From assembly GCF_009914755.1 (NCBI RefSeq), contig NC_060933.1: DNA of 64,000 nucleotides, one strand, 5' to 3'. Positions 22,841 through 34,218 of this stretch are shown one piece after another. The notes under the pieces were generated by a model. That model saw only the letters and a list, made by a program, of their open reading frames with translations. It did not search any database and was not told the DNA's origin. Source of the stretch: the human T2T-CHM13v2.0 reference genome, Homo sapiens. Both the position numbers and the translations under genes were made by a program. Position 1 is the stretch's first letter, and each line of letters opens with the position of its first letter.

Positions 22841-23813
22841 CCTCATGGGTAACATATTTTCATCTAAATTACCTGCCTTTTTATTTTTCAATAAAGTTTT
22901 TTCCTCTCCCTCGTCATTGTTCACGAAGAAACAGTGTTCTATGATTTCATTAAAGTCACTATAACATGAACTTCAAGATAGGAGGATGAAGTTGTGATGC
23001 TGATGCTCAGGGGGCATCTTGGCTCACTTGAAGCCAAGATTTTTCTGCACACAAAGTTCAGATCTGTGCCACAGGAAAAGGACTGCTCACGACACTGTCA
23101 CAGCCATTCCTGAGGTCACAAATAGAGACAGCCTCTTGTACTTCCTCAAAAGGACTGTTTGACAGGGATTCTTCAAGTAGCAAAATAAGCAGACATCTCT
23201 TTCTGAAACTGATTCTTAATGAGCTATGAAAAATACATTTACATTTATCAGCACTGCTCATATGTTGTCTGCACAGCACTTATTACAGGAAAAAAGGAAG
23301 GAATCACCGATATTAGTATCATTTCTGTTTCCATATCTACTTCGCCTTCCTGCTCACCATTGCCACCACCCCCAGCACCTTCCCAGTATAACTGCTACAT
23401 TGTGTCCTTATATTTTTGGTTGAATAAACAAAAGGACACTGAAGGCTGCCTTTGTAGCTTCCCCTATACCAAGTGAACATTTATTAAATAAGCTCAGCTA
23501 CAGAGCATTTTCAGAAATCTCAGTGCAGCTTCATAATCATTAAGCAGAATATTTATCTAAAAACCTCTAACACTTAATACCAGTTACTCAGTATCTTAAC
23601 CAACATGAAAATACAAAACAACCTTTTATTTTCAAGTAGTCCCCTCAGTTCTCTTTTATGATTAAGGGAACATCTGAATCTTTTCTAAAGTTTTTCCTTT
23701 TGATCCAAATCACTTCCCCTCTACTTTTCTAATGGCTTTATAACCCTTCAACAGTAGGTGGTGCCACAAATGCACAAAAGTAAATTTCTGTAGACCAACA
23801 GAACTGTCACAGC

Positions 23814-23819
23814 TTTATT
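23814..23819 (-). terminator. ABCA1: ABCA1 polyadenylation signal AATAAA
   Basis: tttatt on + strand; U-rich element downstream on - strand. Confidence 0.85.
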
Positions 23820-25615
23820 TTGTGACTCATTATATTACAACATAGAAATATGCATTTTAATACTTCATATAAAGTTATTGACATACAAAATTTTTTTTCT
23901 TTTTTCCTTTTAATGAAAATGATTTAACTTAGAAATCTGTTGTGAAACTTTTGTCTAGTTTTGCAATTCTCAGATATTCCAGTGCAAAAATAGATCCCAT
24001 TACAGACAGCGTAAAGTGCTTGGAATGAGGGCCAATGATGAACAAAGAGCACAAAAACAGCTTCATCTTAGGGTATAAGAAGGGATAATAGCATACCTAA
24101 ATCCTTATGGAAATAGAAACATTCTAAGGGGGATGCAACAATTTTGAAAAGAATTAGAGCAATATTTCTACAGTATTACATTATTACTAGTAGATAATAA
24201 CAAGGGTACAAATTAATGTCTCAATATCAAAGTGGTTCAGTATTACATGACACATGGCTCTTTGGAAAATATTTTACCTGATATATACAACCACAAGAAG
24301 AAAACACAGACAAATGGCTTTAGTCAATGATTACTATACAGTGAATGAATGATGTGCAACATTTAATAGTCACAAAGCATTTGCTTTCAGTACAGATAAT
24401 GAAATACAGTAGTGTGAGGTTTGGTTGTTTTTTAACAATGAATTGTGCTGGGCATTTATGTATAGAGGGCTTATTATTTTCTTCTGTATTTCTCATATTC
24501 ACAGTTGTTAATAAGTTTTCTGAGGTGTCCCAAAGATGCAAAAGCAGAAATTTTTGAACACGTATTTTGAGAATTTCTGAAACTCACATAGGTACATTCC
24601 ACAGGGAATATACAGAAATTTTGCTTGATTGAGTATAGAGTTGGTAAAAATTTCTACCACAATTAGGTTTACACAGGAAAATGTAAAAAATTACTATTTT
24701 AAAAGGTAACACAGTATTAATGAAGATGTATAACTATAGATTGTTTCTAGCTTCAGAAGAGGTCCTTTCAATCTGTATTAAAATGTTGTGTTTTCTTCAA
24801 AATAGTTCACAGTGCCTTTTGATTTTTTAAAATATGGCCTTGAAATCAGAGGAACCGAAGTAAGGAGTTGCTCATAGATTTACTATAATGAAGAATTAGA
24901 ATACGATTTTAGTAAAATGAGGAAACCATAACTTTGATTTTGAAAAATATTAAATGAGGAGAAATTATTCTATAAATTCTGTATTTTTGAAGATACTGTA
25001 AAATGCAACGATGCCATATCACTAGTTATTGGAAATATGCCTTCATTACTTATATTTAAAATCAATATTGACTTTAACTTCTAAAACAATCATTTTTTTC
25101 TTTTTCAGCAGTGGGTTATATAATATTCTGTAAATTTAAAAAATATAGAAAGATTAATTTGAAATCTGAAGTCTTACACCTTTAGCGTTAATATTCAAAT
25201 TTTGGAAAAAGTGGAAGAAGTTAGTAATGATATTGAAAGATCACTTGAACTTCCCCAAACAATAGTTCTCTCATATTTTTCTTTTCTCTCAAGACAGTTA
25301 ACAGTAAGTATTAGTGAAACAGTATTTTTACAAATGTTTACTGACTAGAAAAATAAGACTGGGTTAGAAAACTCTGAAAAATGCTCCATATGGAAGTATT
25401 TGTTGTTTTTATATTTTTCTTGACTAGTGATTGAAGAGATGAAAAATTTGAGACTGTCAGATTTAATGGGGTATCCAATATCTGCAAAGCCAATTATTTG
25501 AAGGTACTAAATGCCATAAACACAAGTTGTGTTTTTCAGCAAGTTTTCAAGCTAGCTGTTTTCCCTGTTGAAGAATTCATTGTTTAGACTTGTGACCCTT
25601 ATACTTTCTTGGCTT

Positions 25616-25623
25616 TTGCATTG
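25616..25623 (-). promoter_or_regulatory. Fourth (distal) miR-33 8mer site
   Basis: ttgcattg about 1475 nt into the 3'UTR. Confidence 0.85.
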
Positions 25624-26940
25624 TTGCAATTAAAAAAAAAAAAAAAAAGGCTGCCCAGTATTGTTACAGTGGGCTCCTACAACCACAAGACAACCTATAT
25701 TTGTAAACCAGTGAGCTGAATAACATGGCACAGGAAGTGTACTGAGACTTAATATCTCTCTAGTCTTATACGTACGTACATACTCTTTCAGCTACAGCAT
25801 ACACTCAAAAAATATTTGATTGATGAAGTGAGATTAAGAGTATCCTAAATGATCTGAAAGAAACTCAAATATAATGTCATGAGATCCTGACCATCACATT
25901 GCTTTCTAGGCACTAGTCATGACTGATATGCAAACTTACATAAGAAAATAAAAATAGTGGGGCAGTGGCCATACTCCTCTATACCACAGGGTTCTACAAA
26001 GAGGCCATTCTAAGGATTCAGAAGTCACTGATAGAACTTAAAATTCCAAATAACATTAAAAAGTACAAACATTTTTGTCAAAATACAACTCCATCTTTTC
26101 ATTTTCTAGATTAATTCAAAAAGCCAGAAATAATACACTTGTGTCAGATAAACATCTTGAGATGCAGTGTACCATGTTAGCAGACAGTCAGGACAAATGG
26201 GCACAGGCTTCCCTAGGTTTGAACGCACAATCTCTTTAATCCCATGCCCTGGCTTCAGCAGCTTGCAGCCCCAGCAGTTTGGCTGTTGATTCTTTGCCTC
26301 TTACCAGGATCTAAGTATATTTAAGAGTCTCATAAGGATGACCCTGTAGACCCATGGCTCGAAGCATAGGACAATATAACAATGGAACCAAGTTTCCCGT
26401 GCCTGGAGACACCCACATTTTTGTTGCATGTTACTGCCACCAGAACAGCTTATCAGAGGGAATCAAAGCAGGATGTTAGCCACGCATGGCACCATTCTGT
26501 CAACTGATATTCAATGTTGATAGACTCTGAGCAGAGCAGCTTTCACAAAAGTGAGCATGACACACCATGGTGCTTCAAACTTTCTGAAAAACTTGGCACT
26601 AATAACTCTGGCACACTCATTGCCAGCAATGGATGTGTCACCGGGAAACCAGTCTCCTGGGCATGGCATGGCTTAGTGAATGAGGATGTGCATTACCTTT
26701 TGATTTTGATCAATAATCGCTGGCCATGATTACTTGATGAATTATTGTTGCAACCCCAATGAGAATACACAGGAACAAAAAAAAAAAAAAAAGTGTGAGT
26801 TCAAACCCATATGTCCATTGGGTTCCATAATAGAGTTTCACATAGGTATAGGTAAAAAACTAAATTCAAGTCTTTCACTTGAGAGCCATACAAGACATAG
26901 GCTACAAAGGCACTGCCCCTGTAATGGAATTTTGTTTTCA

Positions 26941-26963
26941 TTGCATTGAATTGCATTGCATTG
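26941..26963 (-). promoter_or_regulatory. Three clustered miR-33a/b 8mer sites (CAAUGCAA)
   Basis: ttgcattg at 26941-48, 26951-58, 26956-63; miR-33 repression of ABCA1 is established. Confidence 0.95.
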
Positions 26964-27097
26964 AATAGTATCAGTACAGTATCCAGTTTACTTCTTCCCA
27001 CATCAACTTCTGGCTCTTTTCTCCACAACACTTCACATGGTGCAAAGGAAAGTCTAGTTCCTCTTTACTTTCAGCCACCCCGTATGAACAGGATTCT

Positions 27098-29765: not shown

Positions 29766-30651
29766 TTAGAATAAAATAAGTCTTATTTGCTGGGGGGAAA
29801 AAAAATCAAAGATAAATTTGTTTTTAAATGCAGAAGCATCTTTGAAACAGCTTAAATTTTAACTTGCCATTCTAGTTATTTCTTGATGAATCAAAGAATT
29901 AGAGTAACTTTCAAATTCATTTGTAAACAAGGTCATTATTATAAATGTCTTATTGATGCAGGAAACTCAAATATTCTGAGTACTTTTTTATGTAATTAAA
30001 TTTCTCCAAATAAATAGGGAAGGAAAAAGGCCATTTAGTTGTAATTATCTTTTCATGACTGATAAGTATATACAAAACAACTTTTTGTCTGAAACCTCTA
30101 TTGAAGTCAGTATAAGATTGGGGTGAAATTCCTTTTTTTTTTTAATTCCAGCTCACTCAGATTACCCTAGTATATTGCAACTGTTAGCCTTACAGAAACA
30201 AATTCCAGACCGAGGTGGAATACATAAAAGCCTCAAAGGCTTCTTCCCGTAATAACATCAATGCTCTTATCTACAGAAGAAAAAAGGTCAAGGGCCACTT
30301 CCCAGTCTGATCTGTTTTTCATCTATCCATGTGTAAGGAACTATGACCTAGTTGCTACCTTGGGGATTTTAAAGCTGTGTCCACACTCTTCATTTTCAGG
30401 GAATGAACACAAAGATGATTAGAAAGAATGTTCCAGAGAAAGATCAAATCACATATCCAGCCTCAATCACGCTAAGAAACAAAGTGCTTGGAGTGCCTCT
30501 ATTTGGGAGCATCTGCAGGCATGGTACAGCCACCCCAGTGTGTGCCAAGGGAGAAGCTTCCCTCTGCTTTTCCAAGGTTGCTCTGCTGTCCCTGGGGGAA
30601 GACAAGCCAATCATACAACAGCCCTGGACATATAGGACTTTTGAACAGTCA

Positions 30652-30837
<186 letters not shown>

Positions 30838-31130
30838 CTACAGTGATAAAAAGCACCTTGACTTTGGTCTGGCTTGGGAATTTTATCATGCTGTCCTACA
30901 CATACATGTATGAAAGTTCTTTCACTGAGTAGGACTAGATTCTATAATCATAACCTGACAACTGGTGAGGAGCCAAAGCAGGGAGAAGGGACTCGTGTGG
31001 TGGGAGCAGCACTCCCTCTCTGCCCACCCAGCCCTGCCCCACCACCGTTACAGGTTTCCACCCTGAAAGCAGATACAAAGAACCAGCATTTTGTGCTGCT
31101 GCATTCATGAGGAAAAACAGCCTGAAGTCA

Positions 31131-31379
<249 letters not shown>

Positions 31380-32569
31380 TTAAGCAGGTAGAGATACTCT
31401 GGTTAGACAATCTGGCCTAATGTTCCTGTAAAGTATGCTTCTCCATTACAAAGATACCAATACATCTGCTGCTACTTGAAAGCACAGCCTTTCTGCCCCC
31501 AGGATGCTAGCTCTTCCTGGCAGGCAGGGTTCCTGCCTCTACCCTCCCCAGTCCTTGCACCTCCCTGGCTCTCTGAACACTTCAGTCTGCAGGTGCAGTC
31601 CCATTTCAGAATTTCTGAGGTCATGCCAACCACTGCACATTCTTTACCAACAATCTCAGTCACACTACCCCAGGGCTTTAATGCTAAGGCCCCATCCTAG
31701 ACTTCACTCATATGCACCATTCACATGCACCAAATGAGAAGGCCCAGAAATTTTGAGTGTGAGCAACACAGAACCTAGAGACACAATTTATGTGGTGGTG
31801 GGGTGGCTTTGGGGTTCTATGAAGCCAGTCAAGTGAAGAATCACATGTGAGAGAAGTTCAGTGTTCACGTTCCAGACTGATGACTGCACCTCAGCCACAG
31901 CGGCATTGCCATGAACTTGGCCTTCTGGCAGCATTCATTCCTCTCTGTGTATCTAATTAGCACCCCCAGGGTCAGCCTTTTTCAGAATTAGGATTGAGGC
32001 ACACGTGGACACCGTGCCAGGCCCTCACAGCTATACCAACCAAATCAGTTCTTACAACCAGTCCCTGTGACAAACCTTACTATGGGCTGGTTATTACTGC
32101 CACTGCTATATGCGTCAGGAGCTTGGTACTAGGAGCAAGCCTAGGAAAGCAGTTGTGCAGCGCTAGGCCTGCTATTCCCAGAATGTCTGTTCTCTTAGGA
32201 TTCCTTTACATTGCTACTGCAAAAATGTAAGAGACAGGAGAGGAGATCATGAATACATTAATTTCCTTGCTCTTTTCAATTTTATTGGCTATCCCCCTGT
32301 CCAGTGTGTTCAAATTGTGAGTCATTGTTCATTAGTGGTTTGGGAAATAAATTTAGTGGGTCATGACCAGCACTTTTTTAATGACGCAGTATAAGGTAGA
32401 ATAAGAAATAGCAGAGTGCACTACAATTAGTAACAGTAGGTACTGCTTTATGAAACTTTAGGTTATACATGTGTCTACATGTCTGTGTGTACATACTAGG
32501 TTGAGATATAAAATGTATTTCCCACAACGGTCATGGTCAAAAAACTCTGAAAGCCACTGCCTTGTACTA

Positions 32570-32891
<322 letters not shown>

Positions 32892-33704
32892 GCCCAGAGA
32901 AGCCCCACATATTTAAAGTACTTAGAGTAACATTATCTAAGAAGCCTATAAAATGTAGCTGTATTCCCAAAGATCAGATTGCTTTGTGACCTGTGCAGTC
33001 TCAGAAAATGGCCTAACGGTGGCTCAGTCAATTTGTATGCTCTTTAGAGAGGGCAATTTACTTTGTAGGAATTGTTCCTGAGGAAATAATAAAAGATGTA
33101 TACAGGGACATATTTACATAGTGAAAAATGGAAACTAATGTGTCCAACATTTATAAGGAATTTATTAAATAAATTATAGGTACATGTACATAGGGGGATT
33201 TTATGTAGCAATGTAAAATTCCACATCTTAGGAAATGTAACCCACTGGGAAATATTCATAATACACTCATTAACAATAAAAACTAATTTTAAATTCTACA
33301 TACAGTATGATCTCAATTGTATGGCACATTTATATGTGTATATAAGACAGATGTGGGGTGATGGAAAAGTTCTAAAACTGGATTGTGGTGATGGTTGCAA
33401 AACTCTCAATTTACCAAAAATCACTAAATTATACTCTTAAAAAACAAGCAAATTATATTGTATGTAAATTATACCTGAATAAAGCTGTTAAAAGAAGAGA
33501 ATGAGACTGAAAGGAAATGTAAATTGTGATTATCTCTAGATATTGAAATCATGGATGATTTTATGTGCTTCTTTACCCTTTACTATATTTCAACATTTTT
33601 ATGAACTCTAAAAATACCACTGTAATCAAAAATAACAACCTATTTCTTTAAATAAATTAAAAACAAAGTCTTTGCAGCAAAATACAAGCCACTTCTTTTC
33701 TCAC

Positions 33705-33811
33705 CTATTTTTGTTAAGGAAAGCATCTCCTCTGGTAACAGTGGTATCTCCTGTTAACATCTTGAAAGTTGATGATTTTCCAGCCCCATTAACTCCCAGG
33801 AGCCCAAAGCA
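33705..33811 (-). CDS. ABCA1: ABCA1 exon 44 (107 nt), NBD2 Walker A
   Basis: [35 protein letters not shown]. Confidence 0.96.
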
Positions 33812-34218
33812 CTGAAAAGGAAAGATTAAGTTGTATAAGCAAACTCTAAAAACATGAATATAAATGCCCCTAACACGTAACTACCTCAAACCTTCAATTC
33901 TTAAATATCAGAGAAGAATCAAATATTTTCTTGGTTTTAACACATCGTATAGATATTTAAATATGTATTTCATAATGGGACCATTTTAAGTGTGGCTGTA
34001 TTTATAAATATTATTTGAGTTGTCAAGTTGAGGCCAAAGTTAATGTGTGAAAAACAGTAATGAAAGCCAGCTAGCCAAATTGCACCACCTACTCTGGCAA
34101 AAGGGCATAAAAGAACACAAACGGAAACCAGAAAGGAGAAAATCTATTTTTAAAAAACTATTTGAATGTCATCACCATCCCAAATGGATCACAAAAGCAT
34201 GTTTTAGATGTGCGTGCT

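What the first reader, a model, noticed from the sequence alone, without database searches (positions are those of the whole stretch)
26941..26963. ABCA1 miR-33 site pairs with nearly the whole miRNA: candidate trigger for target-directed miR-33 degradation (TDMD)
Seen: + strand 26941-26960 reads TTGCATTG-AA-TTGCATTGCA. Recalled: miR-33a-5p is GUGCAUUG-UAG-UUGCAUUGCA and miR-33b-5p is GUGCAUUG-CUG-UUGCAUUGC. So the mRNA offers an A opposite nt 1, perfect pairing to nt 2-8, only two U's opposite nt 9-11 (central bulge or wobble) and perfect pairing from nt 12 to the 3' end. Seed pairing, a central distortion and full 3' pairing is the established architecture of ZSWIM8-dependent TDMD triggers such as Cyrano/miR-7 and NREP/miR-29b. 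The usual reading as three seed sites follows from miR-33's own internal UGCAUUG repeat. Inference: LXR-induced ABCA1 mRNA could destroy its repressor miR-33 (hosted in SREBF introns), forming a double-negative cholesterol switch. I cannot confirm whether this has been reported.
Basis: partly seen in the sequence, partly recalled or inferred. Interest (0 to 1): 0.85.

Follow-up and report, generated by a model that had tools for sequence, protein, structure and literature searches.

The report
Known miR-33 decay trigger in ABCA1
The ABCA1 message carries a site that pairs with almost the whole of microRNA-33 and can make cells destroy that microRNA; the reading is sound, but it was already published in 2021 and 2026.

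Summary
On the ABCA1 mRNA strand it is a five-unit CAAUG array carrying three 8-mer miR-33 seed sites. With miR-33a/b taken from the MIR33A and MIR33B loci of the same genome, the 3'-most seed site plus the two upstream sites pair with nt 2-8 and nt 12-21. The duplex energy is -26.4 kcal/mol for miR-33a and -23.1 for miR-33b. By the same method NREP:miR-29b gives -26.9 and CYRANO:miR-7 gives -28.6.

The idea is not new. Li et al. 2021 listed ABCA1/miR-33a as an AGO-CLASH TDMD candidate but could not assay it. Rubolino et al. 2026 (EMBO J) report that miR-33a/b-5p are ZSWIM8-sensitive and form chimeras with ABCA1. They also report that miR-33a/b fall when the ABCA1 element is overexpressed, with pri-miR-33 and SREBF1/2 unchanged.

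Still open:
- No endogenous site deletion has been made.
- All 10 bp of 3' pairing come from neighbouring seed sites, so the architecture may be a by-product.
- The central loop is marginal (2 nt on the target side).
- Vertebrate conservation could not be tested here.
- The LXR switch idea is untested and absent from the papers I searched.

The parts
26941..26948 (-). The 3'-most miR-33 8-mer site (7mer-m8 plus A opposite nt 1). It is the seed anchor of the composite, near-full-length site.
   Evidence: (UTR positions 150-157).
26949..26950 (-). Two-nucleotide UU spacer facing miRNA nt 9-11. This is the central loop or bulge.
   Evidence: The open 3x2 loop scores -22.8 kcal/mol and the nt-9 bulge form -26.4 for miR-33a. 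miR-33b keeps nt 9-10 unpaired.
26951..26960 (-). Segment that pairs with miR-33 nt 12-21 (10 contiguous Watson-Crick pairs for miR-33a; 9 for the 20-nt miR-33b).
   Evidence: It consists of the middle 8-mer plus two bases of the 5'-most site.
26951..26958 (-). Middle miR-33 8-mer seed site.
   Evidence: UTR positions 140-147.
26956..26963 (-). The 5'-most miR-33 8-mer seed site. It overlaps the middle site by 3 nt.
   Evidence: UTR positions 135-142.
26939..26963 (.). Pentanucleotide tandem array (CATTG on +, CAATG on -), five units with one substitution in the third unit.
   Evidence: period 5, 5.0 copies, 90% matches.
25616..25623 (-). Fourth, isolated miR-33 8-mer site in the ABCA1 3'UTR. 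It has no extensive 3' pairing (-13.8 kcal/mol).
   Evidence: It matches the 'four binding sites' counted in Rubolino 2026.
23789..27097 (-). ABCA1 3'UTR (3309 nt) that hosts all of the above.
   Evidence: RefSeq annotation given with the finding.

Best explanation
Window 26941-26963 (- strand) is the well-known cluster of three miR-33 8-mer sites, about 135-157 nt into the ABCA1 3'UTR, built from five CAAUG units. miR-33-5p carries the same heptamer at nt 2-8 and at nt 13-19. So an AGO-miR-33 complex that docks its seed on the 3'-most 8-mer (26941-26948) can also pair nt 12-21 with the two upstream sites (26951-26960) across a 2-nt spacer. The cluster therefore does two things. It represses ABCA1, which is established in the miR-33 literature. 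In the composite register it also presents a seed / central loop / full 3' pairing geometry. [quoted passage not shown]

Shown here: the sequence, the register, the energies, and that this is the only such site in the 3'UTR.
Shown in print: AGO-bound ABCA1:miR-33 hybrids, ZSWIM8 sensitivity of miR-33a/b-5p, and loss of mature miR-33a/b (but not pri-miR-33 or SREBF1/2) when the ABCA1 element is overexpressed.
Inferred: that the published element is this site; that endogenous ABCA1 mRNA does this at physiological levels; and that the ABCA1 effect runs through ZSWIM8.
For: The duplex energy is -26.4 kcal/mol (miR-33a) and -23.1 (miR-33b), against -35.2 and -35.6 for perfect complements. By the same method NREP:miR-29b gives -26.9, CYRANO:miR-7 -28.6 and HADHB:miR-33a -22.6. 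Of the 6 seed-bearing sites in the 3'UTR, only this one scores below -16.2. Of 12 CAAUGCA sites on both strands of the window, only this one scores below -15.7. None of 2000 shuffles of the upstream 30 nt reaches -26.4 (mean -13.3). The ratio to an 'optimal TDMD' duplex is 1.00 (miR-33a) and 0.96 (miR-33b), above the published cut-offs of 0.7 and 0.8. The site is not buried: mean unpaired probability is 0.48 against 0.43 for the first 400 nt of the UTR. In print, Li 2021 tested ABCA1/miR-33a as one of 13 AGO-CLASH triggers (criteria). [quoted passage not shown] My scan recovers a TDMD-like site in HADHB, their second trigger. This supports the view that the same logic identifies their ABCA1 element.
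Against: All 10 bp of 3' pairing are supplied by the two neighbouring 8-mer seed sites. With those kept, any spacer of 0-5 nt gave -22 kcal/mol or better in every trial: 100 random fillers per length, and one sequence at length 0. So the architecture could be a by-product of seed clustering combined with miR-33's internal repeat. The target-side loop is only 2 nt and can close to a 1-nt bulge for miR-33a. This fails TDMDfinder's 2-8 nt bulge rule in the thermodynamic optimum. Changed loop length and full complementarity both weakened ZSWIM8 recognition in vitro for CYRANO/miR-7. The published functional test is overexpression with N = 2. The authors state that no deletion clones of the element were made, and miR-33a-5p did not reach their FDR threshold in the 'Common' set. 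In the passages I saw, ZSWIM8 dependence of the ABCA1-element effect itself was not reported. Li 2021 could not detect miR-33a by Northern blot. The main texts of Shi 2023 and Jones 2023 never name miR-33; every 'miR-33' hit is miR-335. The claimed mouse ZSWIM8 sensitivity therefore rests on supplements I could not open. A goose ABCA1 3'UTR reporter did not respond to miR-33. Vertebrate conservation of the spacer could not be tested.
Confidence: 0.65

Rival explanations
1. The cluster is only a repression element. Three 8-mer seed sites were selected to silence ABCA1. The near-full complementarity is an unselected consequence of miR-33's internal heptamer repeat plus close site spacing. At most it adds 3'-supplementary affinity, and endogenous TDMD from ABCA1 mRNA is negligible.
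For: Every base of the 3'-pairing segment belongs to seed site 1 or 2. The spacer scan shows the composite pairing appears at almost any short spacing. The array is a simple (CATTG)5 repeat, and the same motif pair occurs 115 times genome-wide, mostly in microsatellites. No endogenous loss-of-site data exist.
Against: AGO-bound ABCA1:miR-33 hybrids passed TDMD-type filters in CLASH. miR-33a/b-5p rise on ZSWIM8 knockdown, and the ABCA1 element lowers mature miR-33a/b without touching pri-miR-33. The observed 2-nt spacer is within 0.6 kcal/mol of the energetic optimum in the scan.
Confidence: 0.28
2. The site is an AGO2 slicing site. The near-perfect miR-33a duplex (only nt 9 bulged) lets AGO2 cleave ABCA1 mRNA between the bases facing nt 10 and 11, so the extended pairing serves mRNA destruction and not miRNA destruction.
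For: The minimum-energy miR-33a duplex pairs nt 10 and 11 (A-U, G-U) and nt 12-21.
Against: The guide strand has a bulge at nt 9 and a wobble at nt 11, right at the scissile position. miR-33b leaves nt 9-10 unpaired. Contiguous central pairing is the established requirement for slicing; this is general knowledge and was not tested here. The published data show loss of the miRNA.
Confidence: 0.05
3. The site is a chance microsatellite with no miR-33-related function.
For: It is a 5-unit pentanucleotide repeat, and similar arrays are scattered through the genome.
Against: The expected count in the window is 0.01. The three sites are the target region replaced in the mouse Abca1 binding-site-mutant model, which has phenotypic consequences (review passage). 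Physical hybrids and a functional assay are published.
Confidence: 0.02

Closest known systems
ABCA1 element for miR-33a/b-5p as published (Li et al. 2021, Genes Dev; Rubolino et al. 2026, EMBO J)
   Same: Same gene, same miRNA and same proposed mechanism. [quoted passage not shown] That matches my count of four 8-mers, three of them in this cluster. This is the only site in the UTR with TDMD-like pairing.
   Different: I could not see Fig. 3I or Datasets EV2 and EV6, so identity of coordinates is inferred.
CYRANO (OIP5-AS1) : miR-7
   Same: Seed pairing, a central interruption, and pairing through the 3' end. Duplex energy is comparable (-28.6 against -26.4 kcal/mol).
   Different: CYRANO is a lncRNA. 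Its loop is 4 nt on the target side and 2 nt on the miRNA side, against 2 and 3 nt at most in ABCA1. CYRANO is validated by endogenous site disruption (stated in the passage); ABCA1 is not.
NREP : miR-29b
   Same: An mRNA 3'UTR trigger with similar energy (-26.9 kcal/mol; ratio 0.92 against 1.00).
   Different: The NREP optimum has a 3-nt miRNA-side bulge at nt 12-14 and no neighbouring seed sites. The ABCA1 3' pairing is made entirely of further seed sites.
HADHB : miR-33a/b (the second trigger in Rubolino 2026)
   Same: Same miRNA, a 3'UTR site, and a lipid-metabolism target gene. The architecture is TDMD-like (L033 near position 2550; -22.6 kcal/mol; ratio 0.86).
   Different: It is a single seed site with 7 contiguous 3' pairs and two small interruptions, so it is weaker than ABCA1.
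Atp6v1g1 / Lpar4 : miR-335-3p and Plagl1 / Lrrc58 : miR-322/503 (Lin et al. 2026)
   Same: Sites in the 3'UTRs of protein-coding mRNAs that direct miRNA decay. Several sites and transcripts can collaborate on one miRNA, as ABCA1 and HADHB might.
   Different: Those were validated by endogenous deletions in cells and mice. That paper does not mention ABCA1 (0 occurrences).

Membership tests
ZSWIM8-dependent TDMD trigger site | Pairing to the miRNA seed (nt 2-8) | tested here: met
   An 8-mer at 26941-26948.
ZSWIM8-dependent TDMD trigger site | [quoted passage not shown] | tested here: met
   Ten contiguous Watson-Crick pairs (nt 12-21) for miR-33a and 9 (nt 12-20) for miR-33b. Criteria.
ZSWIM8-dependent TDMD trigger site | Central internal loop or bulge (2-8 nt in TDMDfinder; more than 0 and fewer than 7 in Li 2021) that allows the bend recognised by ZSWIM8 | tested here: inconclusive
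   If held open, the loop is 3 nt (miRNA) by 2 nt (target), at -22.8 kcal/mol. The solution optimum for miR-33a is a 1-nt bulge at nt 9 (-26.4). miR-33b keeps nt 9-10 open. This meets Li's rule but is borderline for TDMDfinder's. Loop length matters in vitro. The geometry inside AGO2 was not modelled.
ZSWIM8-dependent TDMD trigger site | Hybridisation energy at least 0.7 (high confidence: 0.8) of an optimal TDMD duplex | tested here: met
   Ratio 1.00 (miR-33a) and 0.96 (miR-33b), from my reimplementation. Criterion.
ZSWIM8-dependent TDMD trigger site | The miRNA rises post-transcriptionally when ZSWIM8 is lost | not testable with these tools
   Published for miR-33a/b-5p in breast cancer lines and, by citation, in K562, HEK293T and mouse (passages). 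The main texts of Shi 2023 and Jones 2023 do not name miR-33.
ZSWIM8-dependent TDMD trigger site | An AGO-bound trigger:miRNA hybrid is observed in cells | not testable with these tools
   Published: AGO-CLASH (Li 2021) and miR-eCLIP chimeras (Rubolino 2026, Fig. 3F legend).
ZSWIM8-dependent TDMD trigger site | Expressing the site lowers the mature miRNA but not the pri-miRNA | not testable with these tools
   Published with N = 2 in two cell lines.
ZSWIM8-dependent TDMD trigger site | Removing the endogenous site raises the miRNA | not tested
   The authors state that no deletion clones of the ABCA1 or HADHB elements were made. The paper on the mouse Abca1 binding-site mutant is not held.
ZSWIM8-dependent TDMD trigger site | Evolutionary conservation of the 3'-pairing segment and its spacing | not testable with these tools
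   No vertebrate genomes are on hand. Indirect evidence: the mouse region holds three sites. ABCA1/miR-33a was one of Li's 11 high-confidence hybrids, which meet at least 4 of 5 criteria, so it met at least one of 'conservation score above 2' or 'seen in both human and mouse' (my inference). A goose reporter did not respond.
Canonical miRNA seed-site cluster | 8-mer matches to nt 2-8 plus A opposite nt 1, within a 3'UTR | tested here: met
   Three 8-mers at 26941-26948, 26951-26958 and 26956-26963, and a fourth at 25616-25623.
AGO2 slicing site | Uninterrupted pairing across the centre of the guide (about nt 9-12) | tested here: not met
   nt 9 is bulged and nt 11 is a G-U wobble for miR-33a. 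nt 9-10 are unpaired for miR-33b.

The most novel reading that the evidence does not exclude
Endogenous ABCA1 mRNA, when strongly induced (for example by LXR in sterol-loaded macrophages or hepatocytes), is the main physiological trigger that clears miR-33a/b-5p through ZSWIM8. The repressor and its best target would then form a mutual-inhibition switch layered on SREBF host-gene transcription. The unusually small loop (2 nt on the target side) would define a minimal-loop class of trigger, to which miR-33b (two unpaired central bases) and miR-33a (one) respond differently. None of my searches found this tested.
Probability: 0.3. Interest if true: 0.6.

Novelty: already known. Interest (0 to 1): 0.3.

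Why it matters
miR-33 and ABCA1 form one of the best-studied microRNA axes in cholesterol efflux and atherosclerosis, and anti-miR-33 has been pursued as a therapy. If the ABCA1 message also destroys miR-33, then ABCA1 induction would de-repress every other miR-33 target, including fatty-acid oxidation genes such as HADHB, CROT and CPT1A. Binding-site-mutant mice and target-site blockers would then have effects beyond ABCA1 itself. That consequence is real but has already been raised in print. What is left is the endogenous, physiological test.

Tried and rejected
Conservation. I looked for vertebrate conservation of the spacer, but the tools hold no vertebrate genomes. Papers that might show alignments or miR-33 levels in site-mutant mice are not held: Price 2019, PMC6417928 and Marquart 2010, PMC2901433. 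Shi 2020, PMC8356967, is not held either. A six-term library search led only to bird papers, which do not show the site. A search for the 25-nt mRNA-sense string found 0 papers.

Genome-wide uniqueness. The loose pattern gave 115 matches against 46 for the backwards control. Of these, 97 were listed and 18 were not. I dropped 15 overlapping microsatellite registers by hand, leaving 82 entries; one overlapping pair on C1 was left in. Of the 82, 22 lie antisense inside a gene, and ABCA1 is the only protein-coding case within 3.2 kb of the gene's 3' end. Exon tables for other chromosomes were not available, so 'intronic' is a guess from distance, and closed regions are not shown.

Fourth site. 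I considered whether the published element might be the fourth site (25616-25623). I rejected this because that site has almost no 3' pairing (-13.8 kcal/mol).

Local folding. The local fold (z = -2.73, 2 of 200 shuffles as stable) shows nothing that hides the site.

Supplements. Supplements are closed. Rubolino Datasets EV1, EV2 and EV6, Li Table S1, and the Shi and Jones tables may bear on the identity of the element and on mouse ZSWIM8 sensitivity.

What I saw of each paper:
- PMC13631368: outline and abstract, passages and section 26.
- Passages only: PMC8653786; PMC13041716 (12 of 19 places shown); PMC10620050; PMC10499020; PMC8103095; PMC8887481; PMC13083262; PMC3953336; PMC4490470; PMC8600252.
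- All other titles: search listings only.

Full report
OBSERVATION. The + strand at 26941-26960 reads TTGCATTGAATTGCATTGCA. On the - strand, the sense of ABCA1 mRNA, the region is CAAUG, CAAUG, CAAUU, CAAUG, CAAUG. Tandem Repeats Finder reports a period-5, 5.0-copy array at 26939-26963. The spaced 20-mer pattern has one exact hit in the 64-kb window, plus two shifted registers of the same array at 2 mismatches. The expected count is 0.01 from 100 shuffles.

THE miRNA. I did not rely on the recalled miRNA strings. I took the MIR33A and MIR33B coordinates from the annotation and fetched both loci from the same genome. I read them and confirmed both as Rfam mir-33 precursors at 81 and 72.4 bits. 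The exact mature ends are recalled from miRBase. A review passage says the mature forms differ at two nucleotides, which agrees with nt 9 and 10 differing.

ANATOMY. The ABCA1 3'UTR (23789-27097, - strand, 3309 nt) holds six matches to the miR-33 6-mer. Four are full 8-mers: three in this cluster (26941-26948, 26951-26958, 26956-26963) and one isolated at 25616-25623. miR-33-5p carries the same heptamer at nt 2-8 and at nt 13-19. With the seed on the 3'-most 8-mer, nt 12-19 therefore fall on the middle 8-mer and nt 20-21 on two bases of the 5'-most site, across a UU spacer. Every base of the '3' pairing' thus belongs to another seed site.

DUPLEX MODELLING. ViennaRNA duplexfold gives -26.4 kcal/mol for miR-33a: nt 2-8 paired, nt 9 bulged, A10-U, G11-U, nt 12-21 paired. 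It gives -23.1 for the 20-nt miR-33b: nt 9-10 unpaired, G11-U, nt 12-20 paired. Perfect complements give -35.2 and -35.6. The other five seed-bearing sites of the UTR score -16.2 to -10.0.

I ran the same procedure on known triggers fetched from this genome. NREP:miR-29b gives -26.9 and CYRANO:miR-7 gives -28.6. HADHB, the second published miR-33 trigger, gives -22.6 for miR-33a. Ratios to a TDMDfinder-style 'optimal' duplex are 1.00 (miR-33a) and 0.96 (miR-33b) for ABCA1, 0.86 and 0.83 for HADHB, 0.92 for NREP and 1.06 for CYRANO.

CONTROLS. None of 2000 shuffles of the 30 nt upstream of the anchoring seed reaches -26.4 (mean -13.3, minimum -24.1). Of 12 CAAUGCA sites on both strands of the window, the next best after this one scores -15.7. 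The site is about as accessible as its surroundings, with unpaired probability 0.48 against 0.43 (local fold).

One control cuts the other way. I kept sites 1 and 2 and varied the spacer with random filler. Every trial at spacers of 0-5 nt stayed at or below -22 kcal/mol, and the 10 pairs persisted at all lengths tested. So the composite architecture follows almost automatically from closely clustered 8-mers for this particular miRNA.

Genome-wide, the loose pattern (seed heptamer, 0-8 nt, complement of nt 13-21) has 115 matches against 46 for a backwards control. Most are (CATTG)n microsatellites, and both MIR33 genes are among the hits. Among the 82 entries I kept from the 97 listed, 22 lie antisense in a gene. 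ABCA1 is the only protein-coding one near the gene's 3' end.

WHAT IS IN PRINT. Li et al. 2021 (passages) screened six AGO-CLASH data sets for hybrids with seed pairing, more than 8 contiguous 3' pairs and a bulge of 1-6 nt. They tested 13 triggers: 11 'high-confidence' plus MTF1 and RARS1. ABCA1/miR-33a was one of four that could not be assessed, because the miRNA was undetectable by Northern blot.

Rubolino et al. 2026 (abstract, passages and one Methods section) list miR-33a-5p and miR-33b-5p among 19 high-confidence ZSWIM8-dependent substrates. They find ABCA1 and HADHB among miR-33 chimeras in miR-eCLIP and predict both with TDMDfinder. They show that overexpressing the ABCA1 or HADHB element lowers miR-33a/b-5p (RT-qPCR and small-RNA-seq, N = 2) without changing pri-miR-33, SREBF1 or SREBF2. 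[quoted passage not shown] That matches my map, and this is the only site in the UTR with the required pairing. I therefore infer that their element is this site, but the figure and datasets were not visible to me.

Five searches found no other paper linking ABCA1 or miR-33a/b with TDMD in substance. The one review I opened mentions the two only separately. 'LXR' does not occur in Rubolino 2026.

RESERVATIONS.
- The main texts of Shi 2023 and Jones 2023 never name miR-33; all hits are miR-335 (my first whole-word query was too narrow).
- The 2026 structural study (passages) shows that the internal loop allows a roughly 40 degree bend. It also shows that changing CYRANO's 4-nt target loop reduces ZSWIM8 binding and ubiquitylation, and that a fully complementary target is only weakly recognised. 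ABCA1's 2-nt target loop, closable to a 1-nt bulge for miR-33a, is at the small end. It meets Li's rule but only marginally meets TDMDfinder's 2-8 nt rule.
The only hints are a review's statement that the mouse region holds three sites, Li's selection criteria, and a negative goose reporter.

VERDICT. The site is at once the classical three-site repression cluster and a near-full-length composite miR-33 site with the hallmarks of a TDMD trigger. That reading is already published as a candidate (2021) and with overexpression evidence (2026), so I rate it 'already known'. What remains open and testable is whether endogenous, sterol- or LXR-induced ABCA1 mRNA materially lowers miR-33 through ZSWIM8, and whether the composite register was selected or is a by-product of seed clustering.

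Noticed in passing
window 30400-34026 (+), with the site lying in the preceding intron: A Gnomon non-coding NIPSNAP3B model (XR_008488039.1) ends in a long exon that runs antisense across the last coding exons of ABCA1. The miR-33 site cluster lies inside this model's last intron on the opposite strand.
   Followed up: no
window 25632-25648 (- strand), just upstream in the mRNA of the fourth miR-33 8-mer at 25616-25623: A run of 17 U in the ABCA1 3'UTR lies 8 nt 5' of the isolated fourth miR-33 site (context printed).
   Followed up: no
G000:C1:147032387-147032455 and other (CATTG)n arrays listed: Any transcript carrying four or more CAAUG units offers miR-33 the same seed-plus-3' pairing as ABCA1. 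One array of about 69 nt lies antisense inside the lncRNA LOC102723321, 14.4 kb from its 3' end. Exon status is unknown.
   Followed up: partly
G000:C15:56362086-56362106: A match to the miR-33 seed-plus-3' pattern lies antisense within LIPC (hepatic lipase, another lipoprotein gene), 9.7 kb from the gene's 3' end. It is probably intronic, but this was not checked.
   Followed up: no
L033 near position 2550 (G000:C2, last 3 kb of HADHB): The single miR-33 seed site in the HADHB 3' end has 7 contiguous pairs to nt 14-20 and scores -22.6 kcal/mol. This is consistent with its publication as the second miR-33 trigger.
   Followed up: partly
window 26850-27050 (- strand): The 201 nt around the site fold more stably than shuffles (z = -2.73; 2 of 200 shuffles as stable). 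A 10-bp stem-loop lies about 18 nt 3' of the cluster in the mRNA, and the cluster itself is only weakly paired.
   Followed up: no
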